A stretch of DNA of 64,000 nt from Geosiphon pyriformis uo1. Lineage: Eukaryota; Fungi; Glomeromycota. The notes below the pieces were generated by a model. It was not told where the DNA came from, made no database searches, and was given only the letters and a program-made list of their open reading frames with translations. This document shows, in pieces, positions 8,897-60,113 of the stretch. Location of the stretch: the NCBI GenBank assembly GCA_016748015.1, contig JAAOMT010000525.1:62001-126000 (forward strand). Reading direction: 5' to 3'. Positions within the stretch are counted from its first letter, which is position 1; the number at the start of each line of letters is the position of its first letter. The position numbers were made by a program, and so were the translations under genes.

Positions 8897-9069
8897 TGAG
8901 ATAGAGAAAGAGCCAATGAACCCAAACCAGAACACAAAGAGTCTAATCTTGTTAAAACTGAACCAACTAAAACTTTCAGAGCCATTATCTTTGATTTCAA
9001 ACCACCCACTTTGGTGGTGAGAATCTTTGAACTGCTCAAACTCAGTTCAAGAGCAGTGTTTCCAACCAC

Positions 9070-9920
9070 TGTTACTTATAGAAATATAGGAAATATATTA
9101 GCATAATTATTAGCCAATCAGAAGTAAGCATAGTAAATGTGGAATTCCAGGATTCCTTTCAAGAATTACAGGATTCCAGGAATTTCAGGATTCCCCGATG
9201 AGGAATTGCAGAATTCCAGAATTTCAGAATTCCTCTCAAAGGAATCGCAGGATTCCAGGAATTCCAAGATTCCTGTCATGAAGAATCAAAGAATTGAGGA
9301 ATCTCAATTATGTATATATAGCAGTAGTATTAAAAACAGAAAAGACAGAATCAATACCACAGAATCCTTAGCAAGAAACAAAATCATTAAATAAATAATT
9401 ATTCCATATCTCAATCCACTATCCACTATCAACACTTTATGTTGATAGTCATTGATACTTAACCACACTGGAACAATAGCTCTTGATCACGGCTATTGAC
9501 GGAATACTAATCTGCCAAACCACCTGGGCTTATTTCTTTTCTTTCTTTATTTTTATTTTATTTTATTTTCTTTTGTTGTTTACTAATTGAGTAAAAGGAT
9601 TAAGTGCTAAGTTATTGACATCAAGGATAGCCTGGTAAAAGACCCAAAAATAAGGATAGAATTTTATATATTATCGGATAGCTTACCAAAAGGGCACAAC
9701 TGCCAGACTAAATCCAACCACCATGCTGAGAAAAAAATTGAGAAAACTCTTGGAAAGATACATCTACTATTGACACTATTGAATCTCTGTCTATTATACA
9801 AAAGACTCCATCAAAATCTTCAGATACCATACCTTCAGAACATTATCAACAGAAATAGCTTTTAAGCACCAAATTACGAGTTGTTATTTACTTCAACAGC
9901 AAAAATAATCCTCTGTAACA
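9070..9920 (+). repeat. 5' LTR of element A
   Basis: TGTTAC...GTAACA; matches 39481-40340. Confidence 0.95.
9138..9305. repeat. U3 tandem array of GGAATTCCAGGATTCC-like units in LTR A
   Basis: Repeated ggaattccag/gattcc units just upstream of a TATATATA box (~9313); also present at ~39550-39715. Confidence 0.8.
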
Positions 9921-9922
9921 TT

Positions 9923-9939
9923 TGGTGCTCCCTGTGAGG
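9923..9939 (+). promoter_or_regulatory. Primer-binding site of A (probably elongator tRNA-Met)
   Basis: TGGTGCTCCCTGTGAGG 2 nt after the LTR; its complement CCTCACAGGGAGCACCA resembles eukaryotic elongator tRNA-Met 3' ends. Confidence 0.75.
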
Positions 9940-9982
9940 TATAATCCTACAAAGAACCAGCACTGATAACACCAAACCAAAA

Positions 9983-12900: not shown

Positions 12901-13297
12901 CAATGACTTGACCTGGACTAACAACAACGAGAGCAAACTAACTTCAAGCTGAGAATGGGGAGAAAACAAAGAAAAAAAAGGAAAAGGGAAAGAAAGGGAG
13001 GAAGAAAACACTCAAGCCAACAACACTTATATCCAATATACCTATGGTCAGTAACAACCATCGACTTATTGCTGATTCAAACTGATATGCATTGATTGTG
13101 GCAAGAAATTGTTGTCAATAGGTGCATGCTGTGGCAACAATGAAGAATATCAGATGACAACCAAGTTTTATTACCACGCATGCCATATCAAACATTTTGG
13201 AAGACCAAAACAAATGGGAAAATGGGATAATATGCCATATATAGCCTATGAAGAAACTCTTCTGGATGAAGGAATGTGGAACGACATCCCAGGACGT
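9983..13297 (+). pseudogene. Element A gag (N-terminal extension, capsid, CCHC), protease and start of Cys-rich domain
   Basis: All ORF pieces share one frame; MAYTPIAKLDNFTGEE capsid start at 10964, CYYCGKQKH zinc knuckle, ILDS.SA protease motif. Confidence 0.9.
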
Positions 13298-14286
13298 TGT
13301 TACCAAACAAAATTAGAGATATTATTTAGCATAAAATTATCTTATAATTCCTATCATTAATTAGCATATATTATTATTTTAAATTATCACTTATTACATT
13401 AGCAAAAATGTCCGAAATTATCATTTAATTAATAACCCAATTTGTACACAACACAAATGTAATCTAATTGCGATGATCAATCATGTAATACCCGAACTAT
13501 GTAACATTCAAAAGTTTGCTGAAATTTGTAGAAATTTGTAGAAATTTACCAAAATAATTGATAGTTCACCGAAATATCTAATAGTTCACAGAAATAACTT
13601 GTAGTTTGCCGAAATGTATCTTTAGTTCAGTGAAATTGTAGAAAATAGCAAAGTTCAAGTTCATAGAATAGTGTTATGACAAGTTGTATAAAAGAAGAGC
13701 TTTTTTCTTCGAGAAAATGTATCTTACTTAAGATTTATCACTTAAAACCATTCCTACGTACACAAAAAGAAATAAATATCAAATAATTTAAAAAACCAAA
13801 TTCTTTAATTATTGCACTTGGAAAATCCCCAAAACCCAACTAATGTTTTAAAATTAATTAGCTACCAATTTCAATAAACTGTTAGTAACTCCAAGCCTGG
13901 ATCGAAAACATTTCTCTTGACAGAATTTTATTTCTTTCACATTTCTTTTATTTTTCTTTTATTTTTCTTATTACAATCATTAGGGTAGCCTACAGACAAA
14001 ATTCCTGTAGAAGAGTTGACTTTCACAGCAAAGTAACTACACATTTTTAGTGAGCTTTCAGATAAGCAATTCCTGGGAAAGAGTTGATATTTACTACAAT
14101 GTAACTACATTAAGTAACTGCCATAGAATTGGCCATTCCACTTATAAGCCCAGCAGTTCAAATTATAGGAGATAATTTGAAGATAAATTCAGTTACTGAA
14201 GGTCCAACTACTTCCTGGAAACGTGAATTCACAACAAATCAACATTAACAACATTCAAGAAAAAAGACCAAAAACCTCTGGTAACA
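13298..14286 (+). repeat. 5' LTR of element B
   Basis: TGTTACCA...TGGTAACA; U3 repeats of (a/g)tttgccgaaat type; TATAAAA near 13687. Confidence 0.95.
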
Positions 14287-14288
14287 TT

Positions 14289-14305
14289 TGGTGCTCTCTC
14301 ATGGA
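14289..14305 (+). promoter_or_regulatory. Primer-binding site of B (tRNA not identified)
   Basis: TGGTGCTCTCTCATGGA 2 nt after the LTR. Confidence 0.75.
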
Positions 14306-14331
14306 AATAACACAGCAACAACAAATTCAAA

Positions 14332-19967: not shown

Positions 19968-20018
19968 AAAACACAAAAACCAACACTCAACTTAACCAAT
20001 TAAAACAACCAACAAACA

Positions 20019-21404
20019 ATGAATTTGGAAAACTACAACAATCTCAAACAATATTTGGAAACATTAACAATCCCAACAGATTGGTTTCCAGATAAAAAAC
20101 ATCGACTACAACAACAAGCCAAACAATATTTTCTACACAACAACATTATTTATCATCGAAATTTCAAAAACCCAAACAAACCACTCAGATTAATACAAAA
20201 ACAGGAAAAAATGACCATCTTATACAACATGCACTCAGATCCTTCATTAGCACACTTTGGAAAAGATAGCACCACCCAAAGAACACTAGAATACTACTTT
20301 TGGCCTCGAATGAGGAAAGACATTCACAAATATGTTGAGTTTTGTAATAATTGTTAAAGAAAAGAAAAAATACGCCCTATTGAACCATTAAATCTAATCA
20401 AAGTTGGACAACCCTTTGACCAAGTTGGTATCGATTTAGTCGGACCACTATCTATCACCACTCAAGGAAACCGTTATATTGCAGTAGCTGTAGACTATCT
20501 TACTAAATGGCCTGAAGCCAGAGCCATTCAATGAGCAGATACAAAATCAATAGCAAATTTCATCTATGAAGACATCATTTGTAAACACGGATGTCCAATT
20601 GAACTTTTATCTGATCAGGGGACACACTTTGTGAACAACCTGATACAAGAAATTTGCGAACAATTCAATGTCAAAAAACCTTTGTCTTTGCCCTACTATC
20701 CACAAACAAATGGACTTGTGGAACATTTTAACAAAACATTGTGTGAGTCATTAGCCAAAGTCTTAACTGATTTTGAGCAAGAGTGGGATATCTTTATTCC
20801 ATCAGTGTTGCTAGCATACAGAACACTAAAACAAGATACCACAAAACACACACCATTTGATTTAACTTATGGAAGAACAGCAACATTACCAATTAATTTT
20901 ACAGTGGAAACATACCTAGTACAACCAATCAATGAAAACAATTTCCAAGAAACGCTTCAGTGAAGAGCCTACACTCTGCTTAGCACATTGGAAGAAAAAC
21001 AATGAATAGCAGCCACCCATATTGAACACTCCCAAGCTTGACAAAAAGAACAGCATAATAACAAATTGCCTCCAGTCACCAATGAATTTAAAACCGGAAA
21101 CAAAGTTCTCTTACACAGAACTAAAGCTGAAAAACAATGGAGTGGAAAATTTGAAAATAAATGAGATGGACCATTCTTTATCCATAAAGTCCTAGGCAAT
21201 GGATCATACAAGCTAAGACTTGATGACAAAATTCTAACAAAAGTTGCACATGGAGATTGTTTGAAACACTATCATTCCAGAAACAATCCTGAACCATTAA
21301 TTCTACAAATTGGTAGACATTCCTCTTTAGTCAATCCCGAAGATATTTCCCAAAACTTAGAACCAATAGTTGTCATTGAACAACCTTCCAACCTGAACAC
21401 TTAA
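20019..21404 (+). pseudogene. Element B integrase (separate ORF)
   Basis: Own ATG; H..H/C..C zinc motif, GIDLVGP, SDQG, NGLVE, GPF module; no chromodomain seen. Confidence 0.92.
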
Positions 21405-21510
21405 TTTAATTTTACTAGTTATTCTCTTATAATTTAGAAACAATCAAAACAAAAATAACATAAAAACCCATACACCAAAAATAATTTTCTTTTATTTCAA
21501 ATTTCTTATA

Positions 21511-22230
21511 ATGACTATTCCTCAAAACATTCAACAATTATCCCAAAAACTAATGTTAGCTTTAAAAACAATACCCAAATTATCCATTACTGTTAGTGGA
21601 AACCACATTAATTATACCCAAACAGAAGTAGTTATAAATTTAGCCCCAAATTTACAAAAATATCATCCATATAAGAAGAACACAAGAAGTTATTCTGGAA
21701 TTCATCTGCCAGAACTTTTAAAGCTTGCTTTAAGAGAAAACCTAATGCTCACTCCAATTAGTATTCCACCAAATGCTACAATTCAACAAAGACTTCAACT
21801 GTGTTTCAAGAAGGAAAACACTGAATATTTTCCAATCTATAGATATTTCAACATTAGAAAAACACTCTATAAACGAAAACTGGAACTTACAACAGCAAAC
21901 CTCACAAAAGAAGCCATTCAGAAACAACTCCACAATGAATTTAAGACAACAGCTGGATCAACAAACAGTTGCTACAGGCTCAGAGCTGCTTTTAGACTTT
22001 ATGACCTATTCTATACCTGTGAAAACATACTACAAAACCCAATTTTTCAATCTTTGAAGATTCAATACATTAGAAAGCTCACAGAACTGAAATTTCAACA
22101 ATTTTCAGACCAAATTTCTTCAATAATTTTGGATTATTATCTGGAAATGACAGACAGTACTTGGACTTCGACAGAGCTCAGTCTTGAGGAGGAGGTTATG
22201 TTACCAGATGAAATTAGAGATATTATTTAA
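21511..22230 (+). CDS. Element B ORF3, 239 aa, unknown function
   Basis: Uninterrupted ORF between IN and the 3' LTR, reading through the PPT; homologous to the ORF3s of A and C. Confidence 0.85.
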   Translation: MTIPQNIQQLSQKLMLALKTIPKLSITVSGNHINYTQTEVVINLAPNLQKYHPYKKNTRSYSGIHLPELLKLALRENLMLTPISIPPNATIQQRLQLCFKKENTEYFPIYRYFNIRKTLYKRKLELTTANLTKEAIQKQLHNEFKTTAGSTNSCYRLRAAFRLYDLFYTCENILQNPIFQSLKIQYIRKLTELKFQQFSDQISSIILDYYLEMTDSTWTSTELSLEEEVMLPDEIRDII

Positions 22231-23177
22231 CATGAAATTATCTTATAATTCCTATTATTAATTAGCATATATTATCATTTTAAATTATCACTTATTACAT
22301 TAGCAAAAATGTCTGAAATTATTATTTAATTAATAACCCAAATTGTACACAACACAAATGTAATCTAATTGCGATGATCAATCATGCAATACCCGAACTA
22401 TGTAACATTCAAAAGTTTGCCGAAATTTGTAGAAATTTGCCGAAATAATTGATAGTTTACCGAAATATCTAATAGTTCATAGAAATAACTTGTAGTTCAC
22501 CAAAATGTATTTTTAGTTTAGTGAAATTGTAGAAAATAGCAAAGTTCAAGTTCATAGAATAGTGTTATAACAAGTTGTATAAAAGAAGAGCTTTTTTCTT
22601 CAAGAAAATGTATCTTACTTTAGATTTATCACTTAAAACCATTCCTATGTACACAAAAAAAAATAAATATCAAATAATTTAAAAAACCAAATTCTTTAAT
22701 TATTGTACTTGGAAAATCCCCAAAACTCAACTAATGTTTTGAAATTGATTAGCTACCAATTTCAATAAACTGTTAGTGACTCCAAGCCTGGATCAAAAAT
22801 ATTTCCTTTAACAGAATTTTATTTCTTTCACATTTCTTTTATTTTTCTTTTATTTTTCTTATTACAATCATTAGGATAGCCTACAGACGAGATTCCTGTA
22901 GAAGAGTTGACTTTTACAGCAAAGTAACTACATATTTTTAGTGAGCTTCCAGACAAGTAATTCCTGGGAAAGAGTTGACATTTACTACAATGTAACTATA
23001 TAAAGTAACTAGTATGGAATTGGCCATTCCACTTATAAGCCCAGCAGTTCAAATTATAAGAGATAATTTGAAGATAAATTCAGTTACTGGAGGTCTAACT
23101 ACTTTCCGGAAATGTGAATTCACAACAAATCAACATTAACAACATTCGAGAAAAAAGACCAAAAACCTCTGGTAACA
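22199..23177 (+). repeat. 3' LTR of element B
   Basis: Follows the PPT gaggaggagg; matches the 5' LTR. Confidence 0.95.
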
Positions 23178-23738
23178 ATGTGGAGGAATGTGCGACATAT
23201 CGTGTCAATACATAATTTTAATAAGTGACTGGATAAGAAAAAGAACCCCAATAGAAGCAGCCTGGAAAAGAGCCGTACAGTGACTGGACAGTTGTCCACA
23301 TAACGATGACAAAATTTGGCGAATGGCACTCGCCAAAATCGAAGGGGCATTGTCTAAAGAAATAAAAACAATCAAAGACAACCCCCCAGAATCTTTAGAG
23401 CTTAACTGGGATGCAAAACCCATTATAAATCTTCTGGATTCAGAACAATTCCATGAACACTACCAAGAATTAGCACCCACAAGGGAAGAACAAGAACAAT
23501 GGTTAGAGCAGTTGAATGCTTGACTATGTCAACACTATCTAATTCCCTGTGACTTTCAGTATTGTAATGAGTGTAACCTCATTTACAATCCACTACCACA
23601 TATAATTTATACAATCCCTGAAGAGGAAAAACCAATCAGCAGATGTGCATCAGAATCGGAATCAATTTTTTATCCTGATTCAAACTCCAACAATGATGAT
23701 GACAAAAACACCAGTTCCAGCTCCATTTAATATGGCAA
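23178..23738 (+). pseudogene. Element A polyprotein, continuation of the Cys-rich domain
   Basis: YQELAPTREEQEQ…LC.H.LIPCDFQYCNEC, homologous to C 28013-28510. Confidence 0.88.
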
Positions 23739-24833: not shown

Positions 24834-24835
24834 TT

Positions 24836-30695: not shown

Positions 30696-32063
30696 ATGGA
30701 TACATTCACTTATCAATGACTACATCAGTACCTATCGACACTATGTTTCAAGGAGATATTATCTCAACAGGAACAGAGTATTATACAAAAACAAGCCCGA
30801 AATTATTTTATTCAAGACAACCAACTATATTGACGAGAATGCCGAAACCACCCCAACTCACAACGACTAATTACGGACAGTAAAAGAGAAACTATACTAT
30901 ATAGCATGCACTCAGATCCGACTGCAGGACACTTTAACAAAGACGCTACCCTCGAAAGAACACTAAACTTATACTATTGGTCAATAATGCACAAAGACAT
31001 TTTCGAATACGTGCTCAATTGTGACGCATGTCAGCGAAGAGGAGGAGCAAGATCAACAAAACCACTTTGACCCATTCCAGTTGGAAATCCATTTGATAGA
31101 ATTAGGATCGATTTGGTTGGACCTTTTTCAATTACATCCCAAGGAAATCACTATATCGCTATAGCTGTAGACTATCTTACAAAATGGCCAGAAGCCAGAG
31201 CAATCCAAATGGCCAATGCCAAAACAGTTGCCGAATTTGTGCATTAAGACCTAATTTGCTAATATAGATGTCCAAAAGAATTATTATCTGATCAGGGAAC
31301 ACACTTCATTAATAATACACTGACTGAACTAAGCCAATGGTTTAGAATAAAAAGACTCTTATTGTCACCATACCACTCACAAATAAATGGACTGGTAAAA
31401 CAGTTTAACAGAACACTGTGTGAAGCACTAGCAAAAATAAGTCATAAAAACAGACAAGAATGAGACTTATTTATACCTTCTGTACTCTTTGTATACCGAA
31501 CATTGAAACAAAATACAACTCAGTTTACACTGTTCAAACTAGTCTATGAAAGAAAAGCTACATTACTGATTGAACAAGTGATACTATCATACCCAACAGA
31601 AACAATCAATGAAGAAAATTTTGAGGCTACCTTACACCAAAGAATGTAACAGCTAATGGAAACATTGGAAAACAATCAAAAAACAGCAGCTGACAATATT
31701 AGTTATGCTCAAGAATAACAAAAAGAAAGACATAATAAACACCTATTAGAACAACTAATGGAATTCAAGATTGGAGACCAAGTACTATTACATCGTACAA
31801 AAGCTGAGAAACAGTGGAGTGGAAAGTTCAACCCAAAGTGGGACAGTCCATTCCACATACACGAAGCATTAGGAAATAGAGCTTACAAATTACGATTGGA
31901 AGACAGGATTTTAAAGAAAGTAGCACATGGAAATTAGTTAAAAATTTATCATGTAAAACAGGAATCATTGTCATCAGTACTTCAACTAGGAACACAAATT
32001 TTATTAATCAGACCAGAAAATATACCATGAGATCTGGAACCAATCATCATCATCGAAACATAG
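30696..32063 (+). pseudogene. Element C integrase (separate ORF)
   Basis: ATG at 30696 (MDTFTYQ.LHQYL), in a different frame from RH; MHSDPTAGH, IDLVGP, SDQGTHF. Confidence 0.9.
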
Positions 32064-33967: not shown

Positions 33968-36900
33968 GCGACAACAATAATACCAATGCCAACTCAAATT
34001 CAAACTCTGATTTAAACTATGAACAATACATTGCACTACCAGATCTCTTCAAGGAACAAGAGTTGAAATGGTATAGTGACAATGGGGAAGGTATTATGCC
34101 AGAACGTGCGCATGATACAGATGCAGGGTTTGATCTGAAATATTCAGGAAAAGATGCCATCAAATTGGAACTGCATTCACGCACCTGCATTGATTTGAAA
34201 ATAGCACTAAAAATTCCAGCAACAACAATGGTTCAATTAGCATCTAGGAGTAGTTTAGCGAAAAGAGGAATCAATATAAGAGGAGGAATAATTAACACGG
34301 GATATATAGAAAATATCATTGCCATGCTACAAAATGACTCAGAAAAGACCTATATAATAGAGCTCAACAAAAAAATAGCACAGACAATATTCCTGCCTCT
34401 GGTTAGAATAGCTCAGTTAGTGTCAGTGGGAAAAAGGGAGGAATTAGAAATAACAGTGAGAGAAATACAAGAATTTGGATCAATGGATAGAATAGAGGTA
34501 CCAGTTAATATGGTAGAGAAAAAAATTGTTGGCCAAGGAGAAATTATCTCAGCTGGTCAAGCTATTTCCATTCCACTATATAGCCAGTACATGCTAGCAA
34601 TAGGAAAGAAAGAAAAGAAGCAAGGACAAATTTTTGAAGCTGAAGCAAACCTTTGTGAATCAGGAGAGATTGAGTTAATCAATCTTCACATACCAGCCAA
34701 AAGTTATAGCAGCATAAAAATTCCCATCTACAACAACACTGGCAATGTCATCAACATACTAGAAGGAATCACCATTGGATATTTAACCATAGAAATAGAA
34801 GACCAATTACCAAACCCCATTCCAGACTTTCCACAACTTTGTGGATATGTTGACATTATATCACAAACAATCTATGGACGAGACAAATGTTATTTGCTCC
34901 AACCAGAACAATTAGAACAAATGAACATGGGAAACTTAGATCCACTCCAATGTATGCAGCTCAAGATATTACTCAACAATTTCAATAACATCTTTGCCAG
35001 CGAAAATGAGTTTGGCTGAACTGACATCATCCAGCATTAGATCAAGACTAGAGATGTAATGCCAATCAAACAAAAAGCATACAGAGTGCTGCCAGCTAGC
35101 CACAAGATCATTCATCAAGAAATAAACAAAATGATTGACAATGGACTAATTCAATCATCAATAAGTCCATGGTCATTACCAGTGATACTCATCCATAAGA
35201 AGAATGGAAAAATCTGGTTTTGTGTAGATTACAGGAAACTCAATGGTGTAACTCATAGAGACAGTTATCCAACTCCATGAATACAGGAATTATTCAATGC
35301 TTTTGGTGGGAACAAATGGTTCTCAACATTAGATTTGGACAGTGGTTACTGGCAAGTAGCCATGAATCCAGCTGACAAAGAGAAGACAGCATTTACTACT
35401 AAAGAAGAGAATTTCGAATTTGAAGTGATGCCATTCGGCTTAACCAATGCCTCAGCAACTTTCCAATGGCTAATAGAAATTGTTTATACTGGCTTATTGT
35501 GAAAATTAGTAGTTGTATACTTAGATGACACCAATGTATTCTCAAAAATGTTTGATGATCATTTTCATCATCTTTAACAAGTGTTTGAAAGACTAAGAAG
35601 AGCAGGACTAAAGTTAAATGCAACAAAGTGCTTCTTCAACAAGACAGAACTAAAATTCTTGGGACACATAGTCAGCAAAGATGGCATCAAAATAAATCCA
35701 GAGAAAATAGAGATAGTAAAGAACTTTCCAGTGCTGACCAATATGACAGAACTGAAATCATTCTTGGGATTTGCCAGCTACTATTGATGTTTTATCAAAA
35801 ACTTTTCTAAGATAGCGCAGCCACTCAACCAACTGCAAAACAAAGATACAAAATATAAATAGACCAAAAGTCAACAAGAAGCTTTTGATATTCTAAAAAG
35901 AAAGCTTATACAAGCTCCAGTACTGATCTATTCAGATCACTGCAAACCGTTCATCATCACCACAGATGCATCCAGTCAGACATTAGGAGCAGTACTATCT
36001 TAGAGAGGACCAGACAGCAGAGAGCATCCAATGGCATATGCCAGCAGAGGTTTAACACCAGCTGAAAAGAACTATAGAACACCAGAAAAAGAACACTTAG
36101 CAATATACTGGTCAGTGTTACCAGTAGAATTTTAACTATTAATTAGCATAAAATTACCCTTATAATTCCTATAATTCATTAGTATATTAATATCATTTCA
36201 AATTATCATTTATTATTTAATCAATTATCACATATCATGATTCAATTAAAATAATCTAATTAGTATAACAGAAAGTAGGATAATCAAATTACACAATACC
36301 CTGAACTTTGTAACATTTAAAAATTTGCCGAAATTTACAGAAATTCGCTGAAATTTATAAGAAATTTGCCGAAATTTACAGAAATTTGCCGAAATTATGA
36401 ATAGTTCACCCAAATTAATCAATAGTTCAGTGAAATAACTTGTAGTTCATTAAAATGTATCTTTAGTTCGCCAAAATTTGAGCAAAGAGAAAAAGTGTAA
36501 ATTCATAGATTAGTACTATAACAAGTTGTATAAAAGAAGAGCTTTTCTCTTCTGGAAAATGTATCTTACTTTAGATTTATCACTTAGAACCATTCCTATA
36601 CACACAAAAAGAAATAAATATCAAATAATTTGAAAAAACCAAGTTTTTTAATTATTGCACTTGGAAAATTCCCAAAACCCAACTAACATTTCGAAATTGA
36701 TTAGCTACCAATTTCAGTAAACTGTTAGTGACTCCAGGCCTGAATAGAAAACGTTTCCCTTGACAGAATTCTATTTCTTTTACATTTCTTTTATTTTTCT
36801 TTTTTTTTTATTACAATCATTAGGGTAGTCTACAGACGAGATTCCTGTAGAAGAGTTGACTTTCACAGCAAAGTAACTACATATTTTTAGTGAGCTTCTA

Positions 36901-37336
36901 GACAAGCAATTCCTGGGAAAGAGTTGACATTTACTACAATATAACTACATAAAGTAACTGGCAAGGAATTGGCCATTCTACTTATAAGCCCAGCAGTTCA
37001 AATTATAGAAGATAATTTGAAGATAAATTTAGTTATTGGAGATTCAACTACTTCCTAAAAACGTGAATTCACAGCAAATCAACATTACTAACATTTAAGA
37101 AAAGAAACCAAAAACCTTCAGTAACATTAGTCATAAAATGGAAAGAATATTTGAGCCAGAAGTTTGAGGTGTACACAGATTACAAAGGATTAACATTGTT
37201 TCAAAAACAAGAATTTGGAGATGGAAGACAGTCAAGATGGAAAATGACACTCGCACTATATAAGTATACTATACATTATAAAAAAAGAAAAGACAATAGA
37301 AATGCGGACAGTTTATCACAAATGAGACAAATCTAA
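33968..37336 (+). pseudogene. Element A dUTPase-RT-RNase H (interrupted by the solo LTR at 36116-37126)
   Basis: PERAHDTDAGFDL, SRSSLAKRG, YLDDT, TDAS, NADSLS; IYW|SVIKW is restored when the solo LTR is removed. Confidence 0.92.
36116..37126 (+). repeat. Solo LTR of a B-related subfamily
   Basis: TGTTAC…GTAACA, flanks tcag/ttag, no PBS or PPT; 3' two-thirds close to the B LTRs. Confidence 0.93.
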
Positions 37337-37399: not shown

Positions 37400-38783
37400 A
37401 TGAACATACAAAAATATCAGCAATTGCAACATTATATAAACACTCAACAGTTCAAGGAAAATTTATCTCAAACGGAACAAAAGAGTATTAAACAACAATC
37501 AAAATATTTTATCACTTACCAAAATATACTTTATTGGAAAAATAGAAGAGATCCAGATCAACCAACCAGAGTAATTATGGAGCCAGAAAAAGAGACAATA
37601 TTATTCAACATGCACTCAAATCCCAACAACAGAACATTTTCACAAAGAAGCAATCATGGAAAGAACCAGAAAGAGATACTATTGGCCATCAATATACCCA
37701 GACATCATTCAATATGTTCAAAATTGTGATGCTTGTCAGTAAAGAGGAGGAACAAGACCCAGTAAACCATTAAGACCAATCAAAGTGGGACAACCATTTA
37801 ACCGTATTGGAATTGATTTAGTTGGACTATTAACAATCACCAGCAGAGGAAACAGATACATAGTGGTAGCTATGGATTATCTTACTAAATGGCCAGAGGC
37901 AAAAGCAATTCAAAGAGTGAATGCAGAATCTGTTGCCAAATTCGTTCATCAGGATTTGATTTGTTGACATAGATGTCCAAAAGAATTATTATCAGACCAA
38001 GGAACTCATTTTGTGAACAGAACATTAACAGAATTGAGCCAAAGATTCGGAATCAAGAGACCATTATCATCACCATACCATCCACAAACCAACAGATTAG
38101 TAGAAAGATTCAATAGAATACTGTGTGAAGCAATAGCTAAGCTCAGCCAAAAAAACCAAAACAATTGGGATTTGTTCATACCATCAGTACTATTTGCTTA
38201 TTGGACAATGAAACAAGATACTACACAAGCAATACCATTTGAATTAGTATATGAGAGAACAGCAATGTTACCAGTAGAGAAAAAAATTAATACATATCCA
38301 GTTGAACCAATAACAGAAGAAAATTTTCAAGAAACATTGCTAAAAAAAACATATGACTTAATGGAAACATTGGAAAACAAACGAAGAAGAGCAGCTAATA
38401 ATATTCAAAAGTTACAAGAAAAACAAAAAAAAAGACACGATAGTCAATTACTAGACAAACCAGTTGAATTCAAGATTAGAGACAAAGTATTACTACATCA
38501 TACCAAAGCGGAAAAACAATGGAGTAGAAAATTTAACCCCAAATGGGACAGACCATTTCAAATAGAAGAAATTCTAGGAAATAGAGCTTACAAATTAAGA
38601 TTGGATAACAAAATTTTAATCAAAGCAGCACATGAAGATTGACTAAAGCCATATCATGACATCACACTACCATCTACCAGTAATATTCCACAATTAGAAG
38701 TACAGAGAATACTAGTCTGACCAGATAAGATTTCATGAGATCTGGAACCAATCGTTATTATCAACAACAACACATTAAATTGA
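37400..38783 (+). pseudogene. Element A integrase (separate ORF)
   Basis: MNIQKYQQLQHYI start, GIDLVG, SDQGTHF, LVERFN; one frameshift near 37630. Confidence 0.9.
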
Positions 38784-39480: not shown

Positions 39481-40340
39481 TATTACTCATAGAAATATAG
39501 GAAATATATTAGCATAATTATTAGCCAATCAGAAATAAGCATAGTAAATGTGGAATTCCAGGATTCCTCTTAAGAATTGCAGAATTCCAGGAATTTCAGG
39601 ATTCTCCAATGAGGAATTGCAGAATTCCAGAATTCCAAGATTCCTCTTAAAGAAATCGCAGGATTCCAGGAATTCCAGGATTCCTGTCATGAAGAATCAA
39701 GGAATTGAAGAATCTTAATTATGTATATATAGCAGTAGTATTAGAAACAGAAAAGACAGAATTGATACTACAGAATCCTTAGCAAGAAACAAAATCATCA
39801 AATAAATAATTATTCCATATCTCAATCTACTCTCCACTATCAACACTTTATGTTGATAGTTATTGATACTTAACCACACTGGAACAATAGCTCTTGATCA
39901 CAACTATTGATGGAATACTAATCTGCCAAACCGTCTGGGCTTATTTCTTTTCTTTCTTTATTTTTTTTATTTTTTTTTTATTTTATTTTCTTTTGTTGTT
40001 TACTAATTGAGTAAAAGGATTAAGCATTGAGTTATTGACATCAAGGATAGTCTGGTAAAAAACCCAAAAATAAGGGTAGGATTTTATATATTATCAGATA
40101 GCTTACCAGAAGGGCACAACTGCCAGACTAAATCCAACCACCACGCTGAGAAAAAAATTGGAAAAACTCTTGGAAAGATACATCTATTATTGACACTATT
40201 GAATTTCTGTCCATTATACAAAAGACTCCATCAAAACCTTCAGATACCACACCTTCAGAACATTATCAATGGAAGTAGCTTTTGAGCACCAAGTTATGGG
40301 TTGTTATTTATTTCAACAGCAGAAATAATCTCCTGTAACA
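39481..40340 (+). repeat. 3' LTR of element A
   Basis: TATTAC (decayed TGTTAC)…GTAACA, after the PPT aaaagaaaggaa. Confidence 0.95.
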
Positions 40341-42125
40341 CTGCTGAAGAAAAAGGTGAAAAAGGCACTACCACACTATTCACAGCTATATCCAAATTCA
40401 AAGCTGAGTCCATAAGAGAAGCAATAATAGAAAAGAGAATACAAGATAAAGATAACATTGGCACCAATTCCACAAAGCTTAATTTTCTCAAAATTTTAGA
40501 GACTTGATTCAATAAAAGCTCCATGGAGCACTCCAAAGAAGCCACATGGTCAGTCAAACCAAAATTATCAAGAAGATTGGAAACCACCACCAAAGGTTTC
40601 ACACTTAAAGTTGAACCAGCACCAAAAGAAACTAACAAGGCCACACAAAAAGATGAGCTACCAGCAATTTAAGCCCAAGTTTTTCCACCAAAAAATACTG
40701 GATAGGCAATTGGAGCTTACTTTTTCTTATAAATATTAGCTAGATAGACCTGATTTTGGGAAAAAACTACCCACTTATAATGAACCCCAGAATTCCCACC
40801 AACTAAACACATATCAGAAATATAACCAAAATTTTTACACTTGGTGCAACAAGCCAAAGAAAAACCAGTCTAGCACAAATTCACACCCTTATAAACTAAA
40901 ACAGAACCAATAGCAGCCAATTTGGATGTCTTATTATCAAAACATACAACCACACATCTATTACAAGCATATAAACCAGGATTATGACCAATAAAGCAAA
41001 TTTTCTCACCATAAGAATTCACTAAACTTGACAAATCATGAGCAATAGTGCCAACAGAAAGTGTATACAACAAAACTTGATGTTGATTTCTGGAAACTCA
41101 TGTTTATTTATTATTAACAGCTTTTGTCACATAAACAAAATCTTTTTTCATAAGACAAATCATCTAGCTACAACCAAATCAGCTATTTCAGATGACTTAA
41201 ACTCCACTAAGGCTTTTTGTTACAAACCTATCAGCTGCACCTTGATAGATACAATCTTGCCAAACTTAGAAAAAACAGATTCTATAGCCAATTTGAGAAG
41301 ATTGACTGGGATCTTCTTAATGATCACCTCCTAATTTGAATGGCTGTTTATCTTTCTTAAATCATCATTAACAATAATTTTTTTACAGATTGCTAATTCT
41401 TTTGCCTTATTCATACTAAACTCAGAAATGAATAAAGCTTTGATAATCTTTGGGAATTTTAAGAGAGTCGACACTTCCCCAAAACCATCAATTCTATAAA
41501 AAATTTTTTTGATTAAAATTAATTTATTGCCATTAGTTTTTTCAGGCACAGCAGCCAACTCCATGTCCAAAGCAAATAATTTAACTGGCTCAAAGCTATG
41601 TCTATCTGGAACATATAATTTGGCTAATGGCAGCTGATTGGATCCAACAAATTTAAACTTAGAAAGCACTAACTCAGTATTATTATCACTCAAGTTTTTA
41701 AAAGAAGGTGTTTTCAGTAGTGGTTCCAAAACATAGATTCTTGTTTGCATTTTCCTAGGAGTCATATCGTCTACCATGTCATCAGTTTTAGAAGTGTTGG
41801 AATCTATATAACTAGTCTTTTCGGCCACTATGTTGTCCATGTTTTCAATGTCCAATACCCCACTAATGCTGACATTTTCACTTTTAACTTCACTACCCCA
41901 AGACATCTTGCATTCACTACAGTCAGTCTGTAAAACATGTTCAAGAAGAGGTCCAGTTAATGAGTTCACTACAACTCCAGTAACACCAGATTTTTTCGAT
42001 TTTTTGTATGAAAGATCACAAGCATAGACACTCTCAACTTGTACTTTCTTTTTAGTTCCAGACCAGGATCTCAATTTAGTCAAACCAGTACTAGAACTAT
42101 CAGCAAAAAAGCCTGCTGGTTTCAT
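40341..42125 (-). pseudogene. LINE ORF1 (N-terminal ~600 codons; C-terminus at 8893-9069)
   Basis: ORF pieces 41331-42125, 40870-41073 and 40341-40644, with a CCHC-like remnant near 40810-40850; directly upstream of ORF2 when element A is excised. Confidence 0.8.
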
Positions 42126-43273
42126 TACAACAAAATTAGGTATGTCGGAAGAAATAACTAAAAATAACTAGGAGGAAGAAGAAAGGAAAAAGCTAAATCT
42201 TTGGCAATATAAAGCTCTTGTTGTGGTCAGAGAATTAACAAGAAAAAAAATTTTGATTTAAATTTTTTATATATATATCTAATACTATTATAAAAATAAT
42301 TGTTATTAAAAAATGTTTTAATAAATAGATTGCTGTGTTTAAAATTGGATTTGTAAATTTATTAATTTTTTATTTATTATATAATATTATTAATATTATA
42401 TTTATATTTATATAATTAAGAATTTTGTTTTTAAAAATTGGTTTTTTAAATTACTTTTAATATTTATAAATATTACTAAAATTGGTTTATGTATAATAAA
42501 CTTTTTTTATAATTTTATAGTATATTATAAATTAAATATTTGGTTGCTAATATTAAGTTTAAAATTAATTATAAAAAAAATATTTAATTATTAATAATAA
42601 ATTAATTTTAATTAATGTTAATAATTTTATTGTATTTAACTTTAAAATTTGAATTATAATAAAGTTTTATTAAAAAATATTATATAAGTTTTGGTTTTAA
42701 TATTAATTTATAACTGTTTTTTAAAAAAATTTGTAAATTTAATAATATTAATAATATTATAATTACATAATATAATCTTAATTAACTTAAATAATTAATA
42801 TTATAAATAGTTTATTTAGATAAATTAATATATATTGTTGCTCATAGAAAATACAAAAAAAAAANNNNNNNNNNNNNNNNNNNNTAAATTACTTTTAATA
42901 TTTATAAATATTACTAAAATTGGTTTATGTATAATAAACTTTTTTTATAATTTTATAGTATATTATAAATTAAATATTTGGTTGCTAATATTAAGTTTAA
43001 AATTAATTATAAAAAAAATATTTAATTATTAATAATAAATTAATTTTAATTAATGTTAATAATTTTATTGTATTTAACTTTAAAATTTGAATTATAATAA
43101 AGTTTTATTAAAAAATATTATATAAGTTTTGGTTTTAATATTAATTTATAACTGTTTTTTAAAAAAATTTGTAAATTTAATAATATTAATAATATTATAA
43201 TTACATAATATAATCTTAATTAACTTAAATAATTAATATTATAAATAGTTTATTTAGATAAATTAATATATAT

Positions 43274-44173
43274 TGTTGCTCATAGAAAATACAAAAAAAA
43301 AAGTTGAAAAAACAGATAGAAAAATAGACTAATAAAAGAATAATAATTAATATATAAACACAATATCAGAAAACTATAATATATTGCTTAACAATGTGTA
43401 TATTGCTAACGAATTATGATATATTGTTTAGCAATATCAGTAAATTAAGGCACATTGTTTAAGAAAATGTAAGATCTCATAAAACAAAAAATATATATAT
43501 ATAATGAGAGTATTAGAAGCAAAAAAAACAGAATTTAATTCAGAATCAATACTCACAGTCTCTTAATTATCTTATATTTTTCTTTTTAAAAGATAGTTTT
43601 CTATAACTTAAAGTAAAATCAAATCACATATCAATAAAATATTAATTACCATTTGAATTCATATTATTGTTATTAATTAAGAAATATTAATTATTTCTAT
43701 TCTATCAATATTTTATGTTAATAGAATCCAATACTTAACCATATTGGAACAATAATTCTTGATTATAGTTATTAACAAAATACTAATTTCTTTTATTTTT
43801 TTGTTTTTTTGTTTTGTTTCTTTGCTATTTACTAAATTGATTAAAAAAATTAAGCATGAAGTAATTTGACATTAAGAATAGTCTGGTAAAGATTCAAAAA
43901 TAAGGATATAGAATTTGAAAATTAAAGATAGCTTATTAAAAGAGCATAACTGTCAGAATAAACTAGCCACCATATTAAAGAAAAAAATTGATGAAATTAC
44001 CATTTCGGAAGACTACTCAAACAATCATTGAATCTCTATTCATTATATAAAGAACTTTACCAAAATTTTCAAATTATGAAAATCTTCAGATACTATCAAT
44101 ATCACTCAACTATTGAATACTAAGTTACAGATTTGTTATTTGTACCAATACTCCTAAATAATTACCTATAACA
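43274..44173 (+). repeat. Old solo LTR related to family A
   Basis: TGTTGCTCATAGAAA…ATAACA, flanked by atat/atat; keeps decayed A motifs (ggaacaata.ttcttgatta, tagtctggtaaa, gatagctta, tgtcaga). Confidence 0.8.
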
Positions 44174-47150
44174 ATATTTAATGTTTATTTATATATTAAT
44201 TAATTTTAAAAAATTTGATAAAATTTTAAAAATTTTTTTAAAGTAATTTACTAGTAAAAAGTTTTTTTATAAAAAACAAAAATATTAAACTTTTTAAATA
44301 TTTGTATTAATAGTAATATTATTATTTGTTATTTTTTTATTGTATTATTTAAATTATTTTTAATTGTATTTAATTTAAATTGTGCTATTTAATTGTATTT
44401 AATAAAGTTTAATATTGTTTTTGTCTTTTTAATAAATTAATAATCTTTAATAAAATTAAATTTAAGATATACTTTTTTTTTATCAAACTATTATAATATT
44501 AAATTATTTATTATAACAGTTAAATACTCAAATTTTTATATATATTACCTCTAATTGTTTTTAGATTAATTACAAAGTTTTTAAAAAAATAGTATTTTAT
44601 TAATTATTATAATTAAAACCAATTGGTTTAAATTATTAAGATTTTAAAAAACATTATGTTAATTATAATTGGCTTTAGATAAAAAAAGTTAATAATAAAA
44701 ATAAGTAATTGGGTTTCTATATTTATAAATTTTAATAATATTTTTATTAAATTAAAAAAATACTTTTTTTTTCTTTTAATTTTATGATTATGACTAGAAT
44801 AAAAAGTAAAAAAGTTTTAAAAATTATTTTTTTTATAGTAATTAATAAAGTTTTAAAAAAAAGTCTTTTTGTTATAAAAATAGTTAAATAAAACGGTTTA
44901 ATAATATTTTTTTAAATATTAATAATGAAAAACTGCTTTTGGTAACTTTTAAACCATTTTTTTATTTTTGGTTAATAGTTTTTTTCAATTAATATTCTTT
45001 TTAAAAAATACATTAAGATCAATTTTAATGTTATTTTTATTTTTTTTAAAAGTTTTAAAGTTTTTAATAATAAGTCAATTAATAAACTAGTTTTTTTATT
45101 CTTAATATTATAATTATTATTATCTTTTTATAAATAACTAAAAGCCAAAAATTCTAAAAAACAACAATAGTTATTTGTATTTACTATTATTATATCAACT
45201 TTTTTTGTAGTTCTAAATAAAATTTTTATAATAGTATTTAATTCTTTTTTTAATATAAGTAATAACAATAATAGAGTGTTTTTTAAGATAAGCCAAAATT
45301 AATTACTAATTATATTGCTAGTATATAATATATTTTAACAAATTATTACTAGTTTTAAAAACAAAGCATGACATATTTTTGAATATATTTTTAATTAATC
45401 AACTAATTAGTTATTTGATTTTAAAAATTAAGCTGATTAAATAAAAACCAAATCAATTTTTTTTCTTTGTTTTTTGATACTGTTTTTAATAATATTTAAA
45501 AAACAATTTCTAATTATTAAAAATTTTCTGAAAAATAACTTTTATTTTAATATTTAATATTATTTTCAAGATTAAATTAATTTTTGTTTAATTTGCTACT
45601 TGGCTTTATTGAATTTAAATTAATTTTAAAAATATTAAGTTGTTTTATGTAAATTTTGCTTTTAAAACTTTTATGATTATTACTATTAAAATTTCTATTG
45701 GTAATTTTTTCTTTTTAATTACACATAAGATTACAAAGTTTTTTGTGATAATTTCTGTTTTTTCTTTTTTATTTTCTATTGTATTTTATAATATTTTTTT
45801 TAATATATTTTCTAATAATATTAAAAATATTTTTAGTGTTTTTAGTATTGTTATTTTAATTAAATTAAGATCTATTAACTTATAGTAATATGTTATTTTA
45901 ATTTTAAAAATTTTTTTTGTTGTTATTATTTTTACTTATTAATTTTTGCTAATAAAAAAAAATTATTATCTTAAAAAATACTTTTAAAACCAAATTAATT
46001 AATCTGTTTTTTAGTTATATTGTTTTTAAAATTAGTAATTTAATTTTTTAAGTTAATAGCTATATGTGTTTTATTTTCTATTTTTCTAATTTTTATTGTT
46101 ATTAATATTTTGTTATTATAAATATTAAGTCTTTAAAAACTTTGAATTCAACTATTTTAAAAACTAATATTTTATATAAATATTATATCTAATAAAAAAC
46201 TTTTAAGTATTAATGTTATTACAAGTATTAAAGTTTAAATTATTTATCTTTAAATTATAAAATATTCTTATTTTTTTTCTTAAATTTTTTCTTAAGTTTA
46301 TTAGCGGCTTTAAAATTTTTAATTTATTTTTTGTTAATATAAAGTTATATGTTAATACTTTTGCTTTTTTAGTTTCTTTTGTTGTTATGTTTTTGGCTAT
46401 TTTTGCTGTTAATTTTGTAATTAATTCTAGATTAAATTTTTTAAAATCCAAGATTTTTGAATTATATGCTTTGATTAAATCTGTTATTAAACAAATTAGT
46501 TCTTTAATTATTTTGGTTTTTTTTTTTAGATCAAAATTTGTGCAAGAATTTTAAGATAAAAAAAAGATATAATTATTATAATAAAAATTACCAAATATTT
46601 TATTAATCTTATGACTAAAATAAAATTTAATATTATAAATAAAAATAATTTAAGTACTACTAAAACTTTTTTTTAAATAATAAAACTGTTGACTATTTAG
46701 TGGTTTTATAATAAATAAATAATTTTAATATTAAGTATAGTATTAAAAAAATCAGATAGTTTTTAAGTAAATTTATTTTCAATAGTTAAAATTTGGATAG
46801 TTTTATTATTAAACTTTGTAAATTGGATTTTTTTTCAGTTTTTTTTAATTTAGCTTTGTTTGTGTTTTAATTGATTTAAGTAGTTAGTTATATATAAAAA
46901 GTATATAAATTATATTTAATTTAAGTCATTTATTATAAGTATATTATATTAGATAATAATAAAGTTACATATTGTTAAAACCTAATAAAAAAATTAAAAA
47001 TATAAAAATATAATTAAATCTTAAATATTGACTTAAAAGATTAAATTTACAATAAAAAATACTTTTATTAAACTAAAATTATTTATATAAATACATATTT
47101 TTTGTTTTATAAATAATTTTTAAAAGCTTAATATCTACTATTATTATTAT
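44174..47150. repeat. Hyper-AT-rich TE relics
   Basis: Very low GC, with residual codon-like stretches (e.g. 46440-46510); family not assignable. Confidence 0.4.
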
Positions 47151-54332: not shown

Positions 54333-54599
54333 TTCCAAACAAAATGTCCTTGACAGTGGAAGATGAATTAATTGTTAATTAATGGCTCCGATTTTTTTTA
54401 TTTTATTTATACCTTAAATTAGATGCGACTCACGCGTTGTCTACATGTGGCTAGCCACCAGACTATTCTGAATTGAATGTATAAAAGAAAACCCATTCTG
54501 AAAAAACATTTTGTGCATAAAAGCAATTAACATACAACTATTTCTAATTATCTCATTCATCCATTTGGCACTTGACTTGATATTAAGACTCTGAAGCAA

Positions 54600-56470: not shown

Positions 56471-58100
56471 TTTTTATTAGCTTTACGAGTGAGATCCAAA
56501 CACTACCTAGTGCTATACATCAAAAAAATGATCTATACTAGGCGTAAATCATGCATTTTTCACATATAACCAGCCATTCAAGCTGATCAGAACAACACTA
56601 TGCAGCTATGTGAACTGAAACTAAGTTACCTATGCCTGAAAAAAACAAACAAGATTTGCGAAAGCCAAAACAAACACCAAAAGCATCAGCAATACCAAGC
56701 AATTTGACTACTCCAGTCAACAATCTTGAGACCAAACCAGAAACTGAAACAAAAACCAAGCCATCAAAGGGAATCAACCTTTTCTTCTCCATATAAGCAT
56801 AATGTTTAACATGAACTGACCAGATATTACTTCTAAAAGCAAAACTAAGAGAGCACACAAATTTGACAATCTCTAAACAAGCAACCTTAGAATCTTAAAA
56901 AATGGTGACTGCTTTACAAAACCAACCACCAAAAACAAAACCCTTATAAAAAGCTATGGACAAAAAGGAGTCAGAAACACAGGATAATAACAGTTGTAAT
57001 ACACTTAAAGAAAAATAAGAAAGACCAAAAACTGCTTTTTAGGAGTTCACATGGAATTCCAATAACTGACATTGAGCAGAATCATCAATCTTACAAAAGA
57101 ACACATGATCTGATATCTCCACATTACTACAATATAAGCACAAAATACTTGGATAGAGTCTATCATAAAAGCACTTCTAAACAGCAACTAGTAGCTAGTA
57201 GTGTAGAGCTTTCATGAAATAAGTACATACATTAGCTGAGGGTTTGCTGGTAAAACTGGCAGCTATGTACAAGTCAGGGTGCCAAACCAAAAATAAATAG
57301 AGCCAATTAATCTCAGAAAGCAAACTGTCTGCCAAAAACCTGGAACCAGAACCAACCTCTCAACATACATAACAAACTGAATAATAAATATTATGGACAA
57401 AATGTCTGGAATTGCCTAAAACAACATTATCATCAGCCATTATGAAGCATTTACCCAAGTGAGAAGGAAGATGCTAACTAGAAAGAAAAGCATTACTAGC
57501 AATCACGTCAGTGCACTCATTCTCTAAAACACCAAAGTGATTTTTAACCTTATGCCAGCTGATCTTCAGATTCTTATTGTAAATAACATTGACAATATAA
57601 TGATGTTTTACCCAATACTGATTACAAAAGTCAGGACATACCAGACTCAATTCTAATTTACAGGCATTCAGAGCAGATTGGCTATCCAAAAACAATTTAA
57701 TAGAGCTCATTGAAGGGACACATTCCAAAACCAGTGCAATAGCCTACAACTCTGCCAAAGTAGACAACATCAAACCCAACACACCAATATCTAAACCCAA
57801 ATTAATGTCTTCAAAAAAAGCAGCAGTGCCAGCTCTATAGCCTGCTGTGTCCAGATCACTAAAAAACTTATCTGTATATACCAACAAACTGTTAACATTA
57901 ACTTGCGAGAGATGATTACAGACAGAAACAAAATCATGAGACTCAAGAATGTTCAAAGAATTAATACCATCCAAAGACAAAGAGCGAGTAAGAAAAAAAC
58001 CTTCACCATTGAGAAATACAACAGAAAGCTTAAACCACTTAAGAACAGGGCCATAGAAGTTCAACCTTTTCTAATGCTTGAAAGTATGCCAAAAATATTT
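56460..58100 (-). mobile_element. LINE 3' fragment (RNase H, C-terminus, 3'UTR, A-tail)
   Basis: VYTD…GTAAFFEDINLGL, WHKVKNH.GVLENE, VKLLGIADAFGV; homologous to 4110-5700. Confidence 0.9.
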
Positions 58101-59114
58101 TTAATATAAACTAATTTAATTTTTAAAAAAAAACCAAATATTAAAATAAAAGTTATCTATTTAAAAAATTTTTAATAATTAATAATAATTTTTAAATATT
58201 ATTAAAAATAATACTATTAAAAAACAGAAAAAAAAGAGTTAATTTTTATTTAATTTGTTTAATTTTTAAAATTAAATAACTTAATAAGCTAATTAATTAA
58301 AAATATATATAAAACATAATTTGTTGTGCTTTTAAATTAATAAAAATCAGTTAAATTAGTATATTAAATAATACAACCAAGAATTAATTCAAATTAAATT
58401 GGTTAATATGTTTTTATTATTATTGTTCATAATAAAAAATTTATTTTTATTCATAAGTACAATAAAATTAAGCATTATAATTGGTATAAATAATATAAAA
58501 TTGGCAAAAAAATTAAAAAAAAAACAAAAAAAACTTAAGTTTTATTTTTTATAAAAGAAAAACTTAATTTTAAAACATTAAAATTAATAATAAAAATATC
58601 AAAAAAAAAACTTTTCAGCATTTTAAAAGAATTTTTATCAAACATAATAAATATTTAAAAGATTGTTTTTAATTAATTTAATTAATTTAAATTTTTTAAT
58701 TATTTAAATAACAATAAAAAGAGCATAAAAAAACTAACTTAATTATTAGCTTTTTATTAAAAACTTTGAAATTTTTAAAGAAACAAAAATAGTATTTTAG
58801 AATCAACAAAAAATTAATTTATTATTACTTTATTTAAAAAAAATGTTTTTACAAAGTGCTTTATTAATAATATATTATCAAATATTTAAGAAAATAAAGA
58901 CCAAAGAAATAAGCAATCTTTTAAGTAATTAATCTATATAATTAAAATTTATCAAAGATTTTTTATATTAATATTTTTATAAATTGAAATAATAAATTAT
59001 AGATAGCAAAAACAGTTAAAAATATTTGTTTAAATATTTAAAATTTTTTTATTATAATTTTAATTCATAAAATTTTTTTTTATTAAAGTTTAATAAATAC
59101 AACTTAATTATTAT

Positions 59115-59680
59115 TTACGTCTCTCTCGGGTTGATGCTGATAGTTTGACTGTATATACAGATGGGTCGTTAAAAAATTTGGTTGTAAGGCTGGGGCTGCT
59201 GCCTTTTTTGAGGACATTAACTTGGGTTTGGGTATTAGTGTTTGGGGTTTGGTATCATCTACTTTGGCAGAATTGCAGACTATAACATTGGCTTTGGAGT
59301 GTATATCTGTGGCTTGCTCTGTTTGTCTGTTTTCAGACAGTCAGACAACCTTGGATGCTTGCATATTAGAGATTGACTTGGTGTATCCTGACTTTTGCAA
59401 TTAGTGCTGGGTCGAGTGCCAGCATATTAGGAATGTTAAATTGCTTGGTATTGCTGAAGCTTTTGGTGTCCATTTTGGTTTTCGCAAATCTTGTTCGTTT
59501 TTCTCAGGTATTGGTGACTCGGTGTCTGTTAATATAAATGTGTAGTGTTGTCCTGACTGGCTTGAGTGGCTGGTCACATGTAGAAAGTGCATGATTCATG
59601 CTTAGTTTAGATTATTTCTTTGATGTATAGTTCTAAGTTATGTTTAGACTTCACTTGTTAAAAAGATAAAAAAAAAATTA
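59115..59680 (+). mobile_element. LINE 3' fragment with an internal deletion
   Basis: VYTDGS…LAELQTI… joins directly to VKLLGIAEAFGV near 59435; same 3'UTR and A-tail. Confidence 0.88.
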
Positions 59681-60113
59681 CTATTTAGTATATAAAACCA
59701 AAATTAGAAGTTTTAGTTAAATACAATTTACATTTTTTTTTACATGTGATCAGTTACTTAAACCAATTAAAAACACACTATGCTAATGCTTTAAAAGAAA
59801 ACTTATCCAAAAAGACATCTTTTAAACAATTTCAAATAATATAGCATTATTAAAAACCAACCATATTAACTAACTAACTGTTTTAAATACATCAAATTTA
59901 ATTTTAGTAGGTTTATGTTTTTATAGTAACAACAAATTAGAAAATATATCATTATTAATAACAAACAAATCCACATAAGAATCAAACATATCAATATTAG
60001 AAAAATTACACTTATTTTTTAATACAACTATATTACATTTCAGCTTACTTACAACTTTACTAAAAAATTCATATATATTAAAACCTTATTAATTTTAAAA
60101 TTAAGAGCACTGT

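What the first reader, a model, noticed from the sequence alone, without database searches (positions are those of the whole stretch)
9066..60113. LTR insertions have 4-bp target sites that appear centred on CpG
Seen flanks: A ccac/ctgc (9066-69, 40341-44), B acgt/atgt (13294-97, 23178-81), C gcaa/gcga (23735-38, 33968-71), solo LTR tcag/ttag, old solo LTR atat/atat, and single flanks ccat (1446-49) and ctgt (60110-13). The outer bases always match within a pair, and the central dinucleotide is always CG or a transition product of it (TG, CA, TA). A, B and C reconstruct cleanly to CCGC, ACGT and GCGA. Inference: the integrase prefers N-CG-N, possibly methyl-CpG, in CpG-poor DNA. That would steer elements into other TEs without a chromodomain and explain the nesting. 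The sample is only seven sites, three of them firm.
Basis: partly seen in the sequence, partly recalled or inferred. Interest (0 to 1): 0.75.

Follow-up and report, generated by a model that had tools for sequence, protein, structure and literature searches.

The report
Fungal retrotransposons inserting at CpG sites
Nested jumping genes in what is likely a mycorrhizal-type fungus duplicate four bases on insertion, and three well-preserved sites trace back to a central CG, a likely built-in target preference already known from a related transposase family, while a role for DNA methylation is untested.

Summary
Observation confirmed. All seven sites are as stated. In the four younger paired sites only a 4-bp duplication fits without transversions. 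A, B and C show CG-diagnostic mismatches (CA/TG, CG/TG, CA/CG), about 1e-5 by chance and at most 0.003-0.006 after post-hoc correction; all seven centres are pyrimidine-purine (p 3e-5). The other four sites do not separate CG from TG/CA/TA, and the old solo LTR favours plain TA. The elements are dUTPase-bearing Ty3/Gypsy retrotransposons of a Geosiphon-like fungus whose integrase is a separate ATG-started gene. That integrase groups with Ginger1-like transposases, whose published 4-bp targets are CCGG, CCGT and ACGG. So N-CG-N is most likely a sequence preference of the integrase with a known parallel. The methyl-CpG and 'steers into TEs' steps are unsupported: CpG decay after insertion explains the mismatches, and host genes are as CpG-rich as young elements. 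No genome-wide sample could be obtained; one outside site inferred from a protein fits TCGG.

The parts
463..1445 (+). 3' LTR of a B-family element that runs off the window start
   Evidence: 90% to B, polypurine tract before 463
1446..1449 (+). single right flank CCAT (centre CA)
4100..9065 (-). decayed non-LTR (LINE-like) element, target of A, left part
   Evidence: RNase H hit, endonuclease-like frame by eye; 2.4 CG/kb
9066..9069 (+). A left TSD CCAC
9070..9920 (+). A 5' LTR, followed by primer-binding site TGGTGCTCCC
13294..13297 (+). B left TSD ACGT (CG intact, in an Arg codon kept in paralogues)
13298..14286 (+). B 5' LTR
20019..21305 (+). B integrase, separate ATG-started gene after the RNase H stop, interrupted by stops
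22199..23177 (+). B 3' LTR
23178..23181 (+). B right TSD ATGT
23735..23738 (+). C left TSD GCAA
23739..24833 (+). C 5' LTR (start decayed to TGTCAT)
30696..31949 (+). C integrase, separate gene, interrupted by stops
32893..33967 (+). C 3' LTR
33968..33971 (+). C right TSD GCGA (CG intact)
36112..36115 (+). solo B-type LTR left TSD TCAG
36116..37126 (+). solo B-type LTR inside A's RT/RNase H region
37127..37130 (+). solo LTR right TSD TTAG
37400..38660 (+). A integrase, separate gene, frameshifted and with stops
39481..40340 (+). A 3' LTR
40341..40344 (+). A right TSD CTGC
40345..42300 (-). LINE-like target of A, right part
   Evidence: a reading frame is open on both sides of A; 2.6 CG/kb
43270..43273 (+). 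old solo A-type LTR left flank ATAT
43274..44173 (+). old, heavily decayed solo A-type LTR
44174..44177 (+). old solo right flank ATAT
60110..60113 (+). single left flank CTGT (centre TG) of element D
60114..60681 (+). D 5' LTR (contains an N gap), followed by TGGTG primer-binding site
63668..64000 (+). start of D integrase, separate gene

Best explanation
These Ty3/Gypsy elements make 4-bp target duplications, and their integrase likely prefers, by sequence alone, a palindromic target centred on CG (N-CG-N), as related Ginger1 transposases do. The preference is probably leaky, with some TG, CA or TA centres. After insertion the region is inferred to become methylated, and each TSD copy loses its CG independently to TG or CA, which gives the mismatched pairs. 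Nesting is inferred to follow from young elements being CpG-rich, abundant and tolerated targets, not from reading methylation. Shown: flanks, 4-bp length, decay spectrum, separate integrase gene, broad clade. Inferred: the ancestral CG, the integrase as its cause, methylation as the mutagen.
For: Three CG-diagnostic pairs and seven pyrimidine-purine centres. CG survival in TSDs (2 of 6) matches that in LTRs (0.34-0.37). Paralogous proteins keep Arg at the B site (2 of the 3 hits; the third reads Gln), and of the two that reach the C site one has a G-started codon and one an A-started codon. One outside site: the Geosiphon gene model P0060 ends by reading into a reversed A-type LTR; its Gly codon fixes G at TSD positions 3-4, and the window paralogue's Leu codon CTC suggests TCGG. 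The integrases fall in one clade with integrase+OTU/Ulp1 proteins (SH 0.998 among 166 sequences; 99.1/100 among 43; SH 1.0 among 53). Ginger1 TSDs are CCGG 75%, CCGT/ACGG 24% (PMC2836005, passages). Three full-length Gypsy elements outside the clade have 4-bp TSDs CATA, GATT and GATC, so a pyrimidine-purine centre is not automatic. Related TE families share target motifs (PMC3276498, passages).
Against: Only 3 of 7 sites are diagnostic. The other four together favour a generic pyrimidine-purine centre about 18-fold, driven by ATAT/ATAT; the fitted CG fraction is 0.75 with range 0.2-1.0. D looks young (CpG o/e 0.74) yet shows TG. No same-clade flanks came from 80 metagenome loci, 78 genome-collection loci, 6 viral loci or the read-laying. 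The P0060 site could be a splice junction, and its C is borrowed from a paralogue. Sister status to Ginger1 is unresolved (0.357; the fungal group joins plant-type sequences at 32/63). The outer TSD bases here (CC, AT, GA, TG) are looser than Ginger1's.
Confidence: 0.62

Rival explanations
1. The integrase prefers any flexible pyrimidine-purine step at the centre; CG shows up because young CpG-rich elements were the targets.
For: 7 of 7 centres are pyrimidine-purine (p 3e-5); four sites fit this as well or better; target bending is general for integrases (PMC10045372, passage).
Against: Even at CpG o/e 1, CG is only 12-15% of such steps, so 3 of 3 has p 0.0015-0.0035; A hit a CG in a LINE remnant now at 2.5 CG/kb; overall ratio 42 in favour of CG.
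Confidence: 0.2
2. The integrase reads methylated CpG at the target centre and so steers insertions into silenced TE chromatin without a chromodomain.
For: 4 of 7 sites are in recognisable TEs; A chose a rare CG in a CpG-depleted LINE; TEs are CG-methylated and most genes are not in the related fungus Rhizophagus (10.1101/2021.03.30.436303, passages); no chromodomain or MBD match. That methylation can create retroviral integration hot spots in vitro is recalled, not read.
Against: Nothing in sequence dates methylation to before insertion; CG-rich targeting without methylation is published for ZAM in Drosophila (PMC2527525, passages); the passages seen of the Ginger1 paper never mention methylation (0 occurrences); about 41% of the Geosiphon genome is LTR sequence (PMC11952901, passage), so nesting is the default; selection removes gene insertions.
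Confidence: 0.13
3. Small-sample coincidence plus pervasive C-to-T decay.
For: Seven sites in one window; 197 of 205 LTR mismatches are transitions, so mismatched TSDs are expected.
Against: Elements were defined by LTR ends, not by TSD; corrected p is at most 0.006.
Confidence: 0.05

Closest known systems
Ginger1 DNA transposons (Bao et al. 2010, PMC2836005; passages read)
   Same: 4-bp TSD with central CG; TGTNR termini; Gypsy-type integrase with an N-terminal segment before the zinc finger that aligns from the start Met; same broad clade; integrase as a gene of its own.
   Different: These are LTR retrotransposons with gag, protease, dUTPase, RT and RNase H, no TIRs, no OTU or Ulp1 domain; fungal host; outer TSD bases vary; sister relation not resolved.
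YPYY-motif Gypsy elements (Athila/Tat, Gypsy-1-I_RO, DGLT-A1; named in PMC2836005)
   Same: Gypsy domain order, no chromodomain, integrase clade that includes plant-type sequences (P0068, P0218).
   Different: Integrase split from pol by a stop; dUTPase present; 4-bp TSD (Athila/Tat 5 bp, recalled). None of the named elements was available to compare directly.
ZAM errantivirus of Drosophila (PMC2527525; passages read)
   Same: An LTR element whose integrase binds a CG-rich target (CGCGCg); 4-bp TSD (PMC3276498 table).
   Different: Stricter alternating motif, insect host, different lineage (recalled); not placed in my trees.
Drosophila gypsy, 412 and Idefix clades (PMC3276498; passages read)
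   Same: 4-bp TSD, palindromic clade-specific target motif.
   Different: Cores are TATA/TRYA or ATAT, not N-CG-N.

Membership tests
Ty3/Gypsy LTR retrotransposons | paired LTRs with TG...CA ends, PBS and PPT | tested here: met
   the tRNA matching the PBS was not identified
Ty3/Gypsy LTR retrotransposons | gag, protease, RT, RNase H, integrase order | tested here: met
   Pfam hits in order; RNase H end before integrase
Ty3/Gypsy LTR retrotransposons | 4-6 bp TSD | tested here: met
   4 bp
Ty3/Gypsy LTR retrotransposons | RT phylogeny within Gypsy | not tested
   only integrase trees were built
Chromoviruses | chromodomain at the integrase C-terminus | tested here: not met
   no chromo hit in A's integrase piece, the two 3' ORFs or the intact relative L019; integrase ends about residue 420
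Ginger1 DNA transposons | terminal inverted repeats of 40-270 bp, no RT | tested here: not met
   direct LTRs and RT present
Ginger1 DNA transposons | C-terminal OTU or Ulp1 domain | tested here: not met
   absent in A's piece and L019, present in P0052 and P0132
Ginger1 DNA transposons | 4-bp TSD CCGG/CCGT/ACGG | tested here: inconclusive
   length and central CG fit three sites; inferred CCGC, ACGT, GCGA are not the Ginger1 words; two single flanks fit decayed CCGT
YPYY-motif integrase group | YPYY segment before the zinc finger | tested here: inconclusive
   collinear N-terminus with Y..YL, P (in B only) and YF/HF...LY by eye; no reference motif alignment was available
YPYY-motif integrase group | clusters with Ginger1 and Athila/Tat | tested here: met
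   group labels are mine, from domain content and one named fern protein
Troyka | CG...CG termini, 3-bp TSD, animal hosts | tested here: not met
   PMC12440569 parts 1-3 of 5 read; termini here are TG...CA

The most novel reading that the evidence does not exclude
This fungal Gypsy lineage is the missing link to Ginger1: an LTR retrotransposon whose integrase is already a free-standing gene with the Ginger1 N-terminus and the Ginger1 CG-centred 4-bp target, so Ginger1 transposases arose from (or were captured as) this module; and the shared CG readout favours methylated CpG, targeting silenced repeats without a chromodomain.
Probability: 0.15. Interest if true: 0.75.

Novelty: new variant of a known kind. 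Interest (0 to 1): 0.45.

Why it matters
If it holds genome-wide, it gives a target rule for the LTR family that likely dominates this fungal genome, explains why TSD-based LTR finders would miss many copies (the TSD centre is the fastest-decaying dinucleotide), and adds a functional character, target motif plus free-standing integrase, to the open question of how Ginger1 transposons relate to Gypsy elements (left unresolved in PMC2836005). Methyl-CpG reading by the integrase itself would be a new targeting route, but nothing here shows it.

Tried and rejected
One public run holds the sequence (it may be the window's own source). Laying its contigs on 22150-23900 placed 20,409 of 2,090,870 records, but only 6 of 779 loose-end rows were shown, none at an LTR end; one joint (22199 to 23602, opposite strands) may mark another B insertion in an A-type copy but its register is ambiguous and was not counted. 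IMG/VR gave 6 distant loci. The metagenome scan kept 80 of 558 confirmed loci; close relatives share the PPT-TGTTAC start but are short or collapsed, with no host flanks. The genome collection gave 78 loci, of which 14 were examined; close relatives were short contaminant contigs, and searches of four of those assemblies added nothing. A protein search for gene models reading into the B LTR start found 3 of 5 candidates, all matching only the host-element side. The matching search for the C LTR never ran, so that route is open. TSDs of 3, 5 and 6 bp were rejected. Troyka and GingerRoot were rejected. No tRNA gene lies in the window. Earlier scan findings: none. Ten literature searches listed no paper on target sites or a separate integrase gene in Glomeromycotina LTR elements; the library lacks most subscription papers and Repbase, and supplements were not read, so this is weak evidence of novelty.

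Full report
Setting. The window is 30.8% GC with CpG at 0.44 of expectation. It holds a nest of LTR elements: A (9070-40340) inside a LINE-like remnant; B (13298-23177), C (23739-33967) and a solo B-type LTR (36116-37126) inside A; the end of another B-family element (to 1445); an old solo A-type LTR (43274-44173); and the start of D (from 60114). Pfam finds gag, aspartic protease, dUTPase, RT and integrase in Gypsy order. The most similar named proteins are from Geosiphon pyriformis (67-75% over part of the query) and other Glomeromycotina, so the host is likely a Geosiphon-like fungus; a published survey gives 41% LTR content for that species (PMC11952901, passage).

Observation. A 4-bp register needs no transversion in A, B, C and solo B, whereas 3, 5 and 6 bp need 1-6; the old solo reads ATAT/ATAT once its start is set at 43274. 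LTR pairs differ almost only by transitions (59 of 61, 53 of 57, 85 of 87), and CpG survives at 0.34-0.37 per copy. CA/TG, CG/TG and CA/CG are therefore best read as decayed CG, giving CCGC, ACGT and GCGA, with CG kept in 2 of 6 copies as expected. Such column pairs are 1.3%, 1.6% and 3.4% of LTR columns (product 7e-6). Taking undecayed CpG as background and correcting for position and choice of dinucleotide gives 0.001-0.006. All seven centres are pyrimidine-purine, p 3e-5.

How strong is 'CG' against 'any pyrimidine-purine step'? A simple decay model gives a ratio of 778 for the three firm sites, 0.054 for the other four and 42 overall, with a fitted CG share of 0.75 (0.2-1.0) (rates for the four weak sites are my estimates). 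TCAG/TTAG, CCAT and CTGT are neutral; ATAT/ATAT argues against CG; D is little decayed yet shows TG. So a real but probably leaky CG preference fits best.

Outside evidence. A genome-wide sample was not obtainable. Three small additions: paralogous proteins keep Arg at the B site in 2 of 3 hits and show G- and A-started codons at the C site; gene model P0060 ends by reading into a reversed A-type LTR, which fixes G at TSD position 3 and, with the window paralogue's codon, suggests TCGG, although a splice junction is not excluded; and three full-length Gypsy elements outside the clade have 4-bp TSDs with an AT centre.

The integrase. In all four elements whose integrase start lies in the window, RNase H ends in a stop and the integrase begins at its own ATG; the relatives L019 and L030 show the same with open frames, so this is design and not decay. 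No chromodomain or methyl-binding domain was detected. Trees of the integrase place these sequences with integrase+OTU/Ulp1 proteins (Ginger1-like by domain content) and a few plant-type sequences, apart from 117 other Gypsy-type integrases (SH 0.998; 166 sequences, including 22 of 44 non-redundant close relatives). A 43-sequence IQ-TREE run gives 99.1/100 for the group, there including one further polyprotein, and one search gives SH 1.0. The order inside the group is unresolved (0.357; 32/63). Sampling is biased: the outgroup and the Ginger1-like set came from two searches, and no curated Ginger1 or Athila sequence was used.

Comparison with what is known. Ginger1 transposons have 4-bp TSDs that are CCGG (75%) or CCGT/ACGG (24%) and group loosely with YPYY-type Gypsy integrases, with no Gypsy lineage as a supported sister (PMC2836005, passages). 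ZAM targets CGCGCg through its integrase (PMC2527525, passages), and target motifs follow clades in Drosophila (PMC3276498, passages). A CG-centred 4-bp target is thus a known kind of behaviour. Its occurrence in a fungal LTR lineage with a free-standing integrase was not listed by ten searches, which cover only part of the literature. The elements work like Ginger1 in target choice but are not members: they have LTRs and RT and lack TIRs and OTU/Ulp1.

Methylation and nesting. TEs are CG-methylated and most genes are not in Rhizophagus (10.1101/2021.03.30.436303, passages), which makes methylation the likely cause of decay after insertion. It says nothing about the state of the target at insertion. 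In this window genes have 27-28 CG/kb, element D 29, older internal regions 5-16, LINE remnants 2-4 and spacers 1-3.5. A plain CG preference would therefore point at genes and young elements alike; selection against gene hits and the abundance of LTR DNA explain nesting without methyl reading. A's use of a rare CG in a depleted LINE is the one hint the other way.

Verdict. A real feature, a likely intrinsic CG-centred target preference (0.62), a generic pyrimidine-purine rule as main rival (0.2), methyl reading possible but unsupported (0.13). New variant of a known kind; interest 0.45.

Noticed in passing
window 20019, 30696, 37400, 63668; L019:5711-6991; L030:3131-4144: The integrase is a separate ATG-started gene right after the RNase H stop in all four window elements and in intact relatives; how it is translated and packaged is unexplained.
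   Followed up: partly
window LTR pairs 9070-40340, 13298-23177, 23739-33967: 197 of 205 LTR mismatches are transitions, with many C-to-T changes outside CpG; the contig-laying spectrum is similar. This is a RIP-like or non-CG-methylation signature in a group where RIP signatures were reported absent (passage).
   Followed up: partly
window 17809-18855, 28511-28972, 33919-35016: A, B and C each carry a dUTPase between protease and RT; the relative L019 shows none in its listed frames (by eye).
   Followed up: no
window 21433-22230, 31880-32509; L019:7458-9179: Extra sense-strand ORFs between integrase and the 3' LTR with no Pfam match above cut-off; similar small ORFs follow the integrase in many metagenome relatives.
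   Followed up: partly
window 42447-42864 and 42885-43302: 418 bases repeated at 100% on either side of a 20-N gap, probably an assembly artefact; it contains the start of the old solo LTR.
   Followed up: no
window 48217-48870 and about 52000-54400 (-): CpG-rich host genes, one resembling a pyridoxal-dependent decarboxylase or sphingosine-phosphate lyase, between extremely AT-rich spacers (12% GC).
   Followed up: no
L090, L091, L092, L110: Long contigs in bacterial genome bins carry intact eukaryote-type Gypsy elements with perfect 4-bp TSDs, which points to host contamination of those bins.
   Followed up: partly
window 22199 and 23602: One contig joins the B LTR end to the A-type internal region on the opposite strand, possibly another nested insertion; register ambiguous.
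   Followed up: partly
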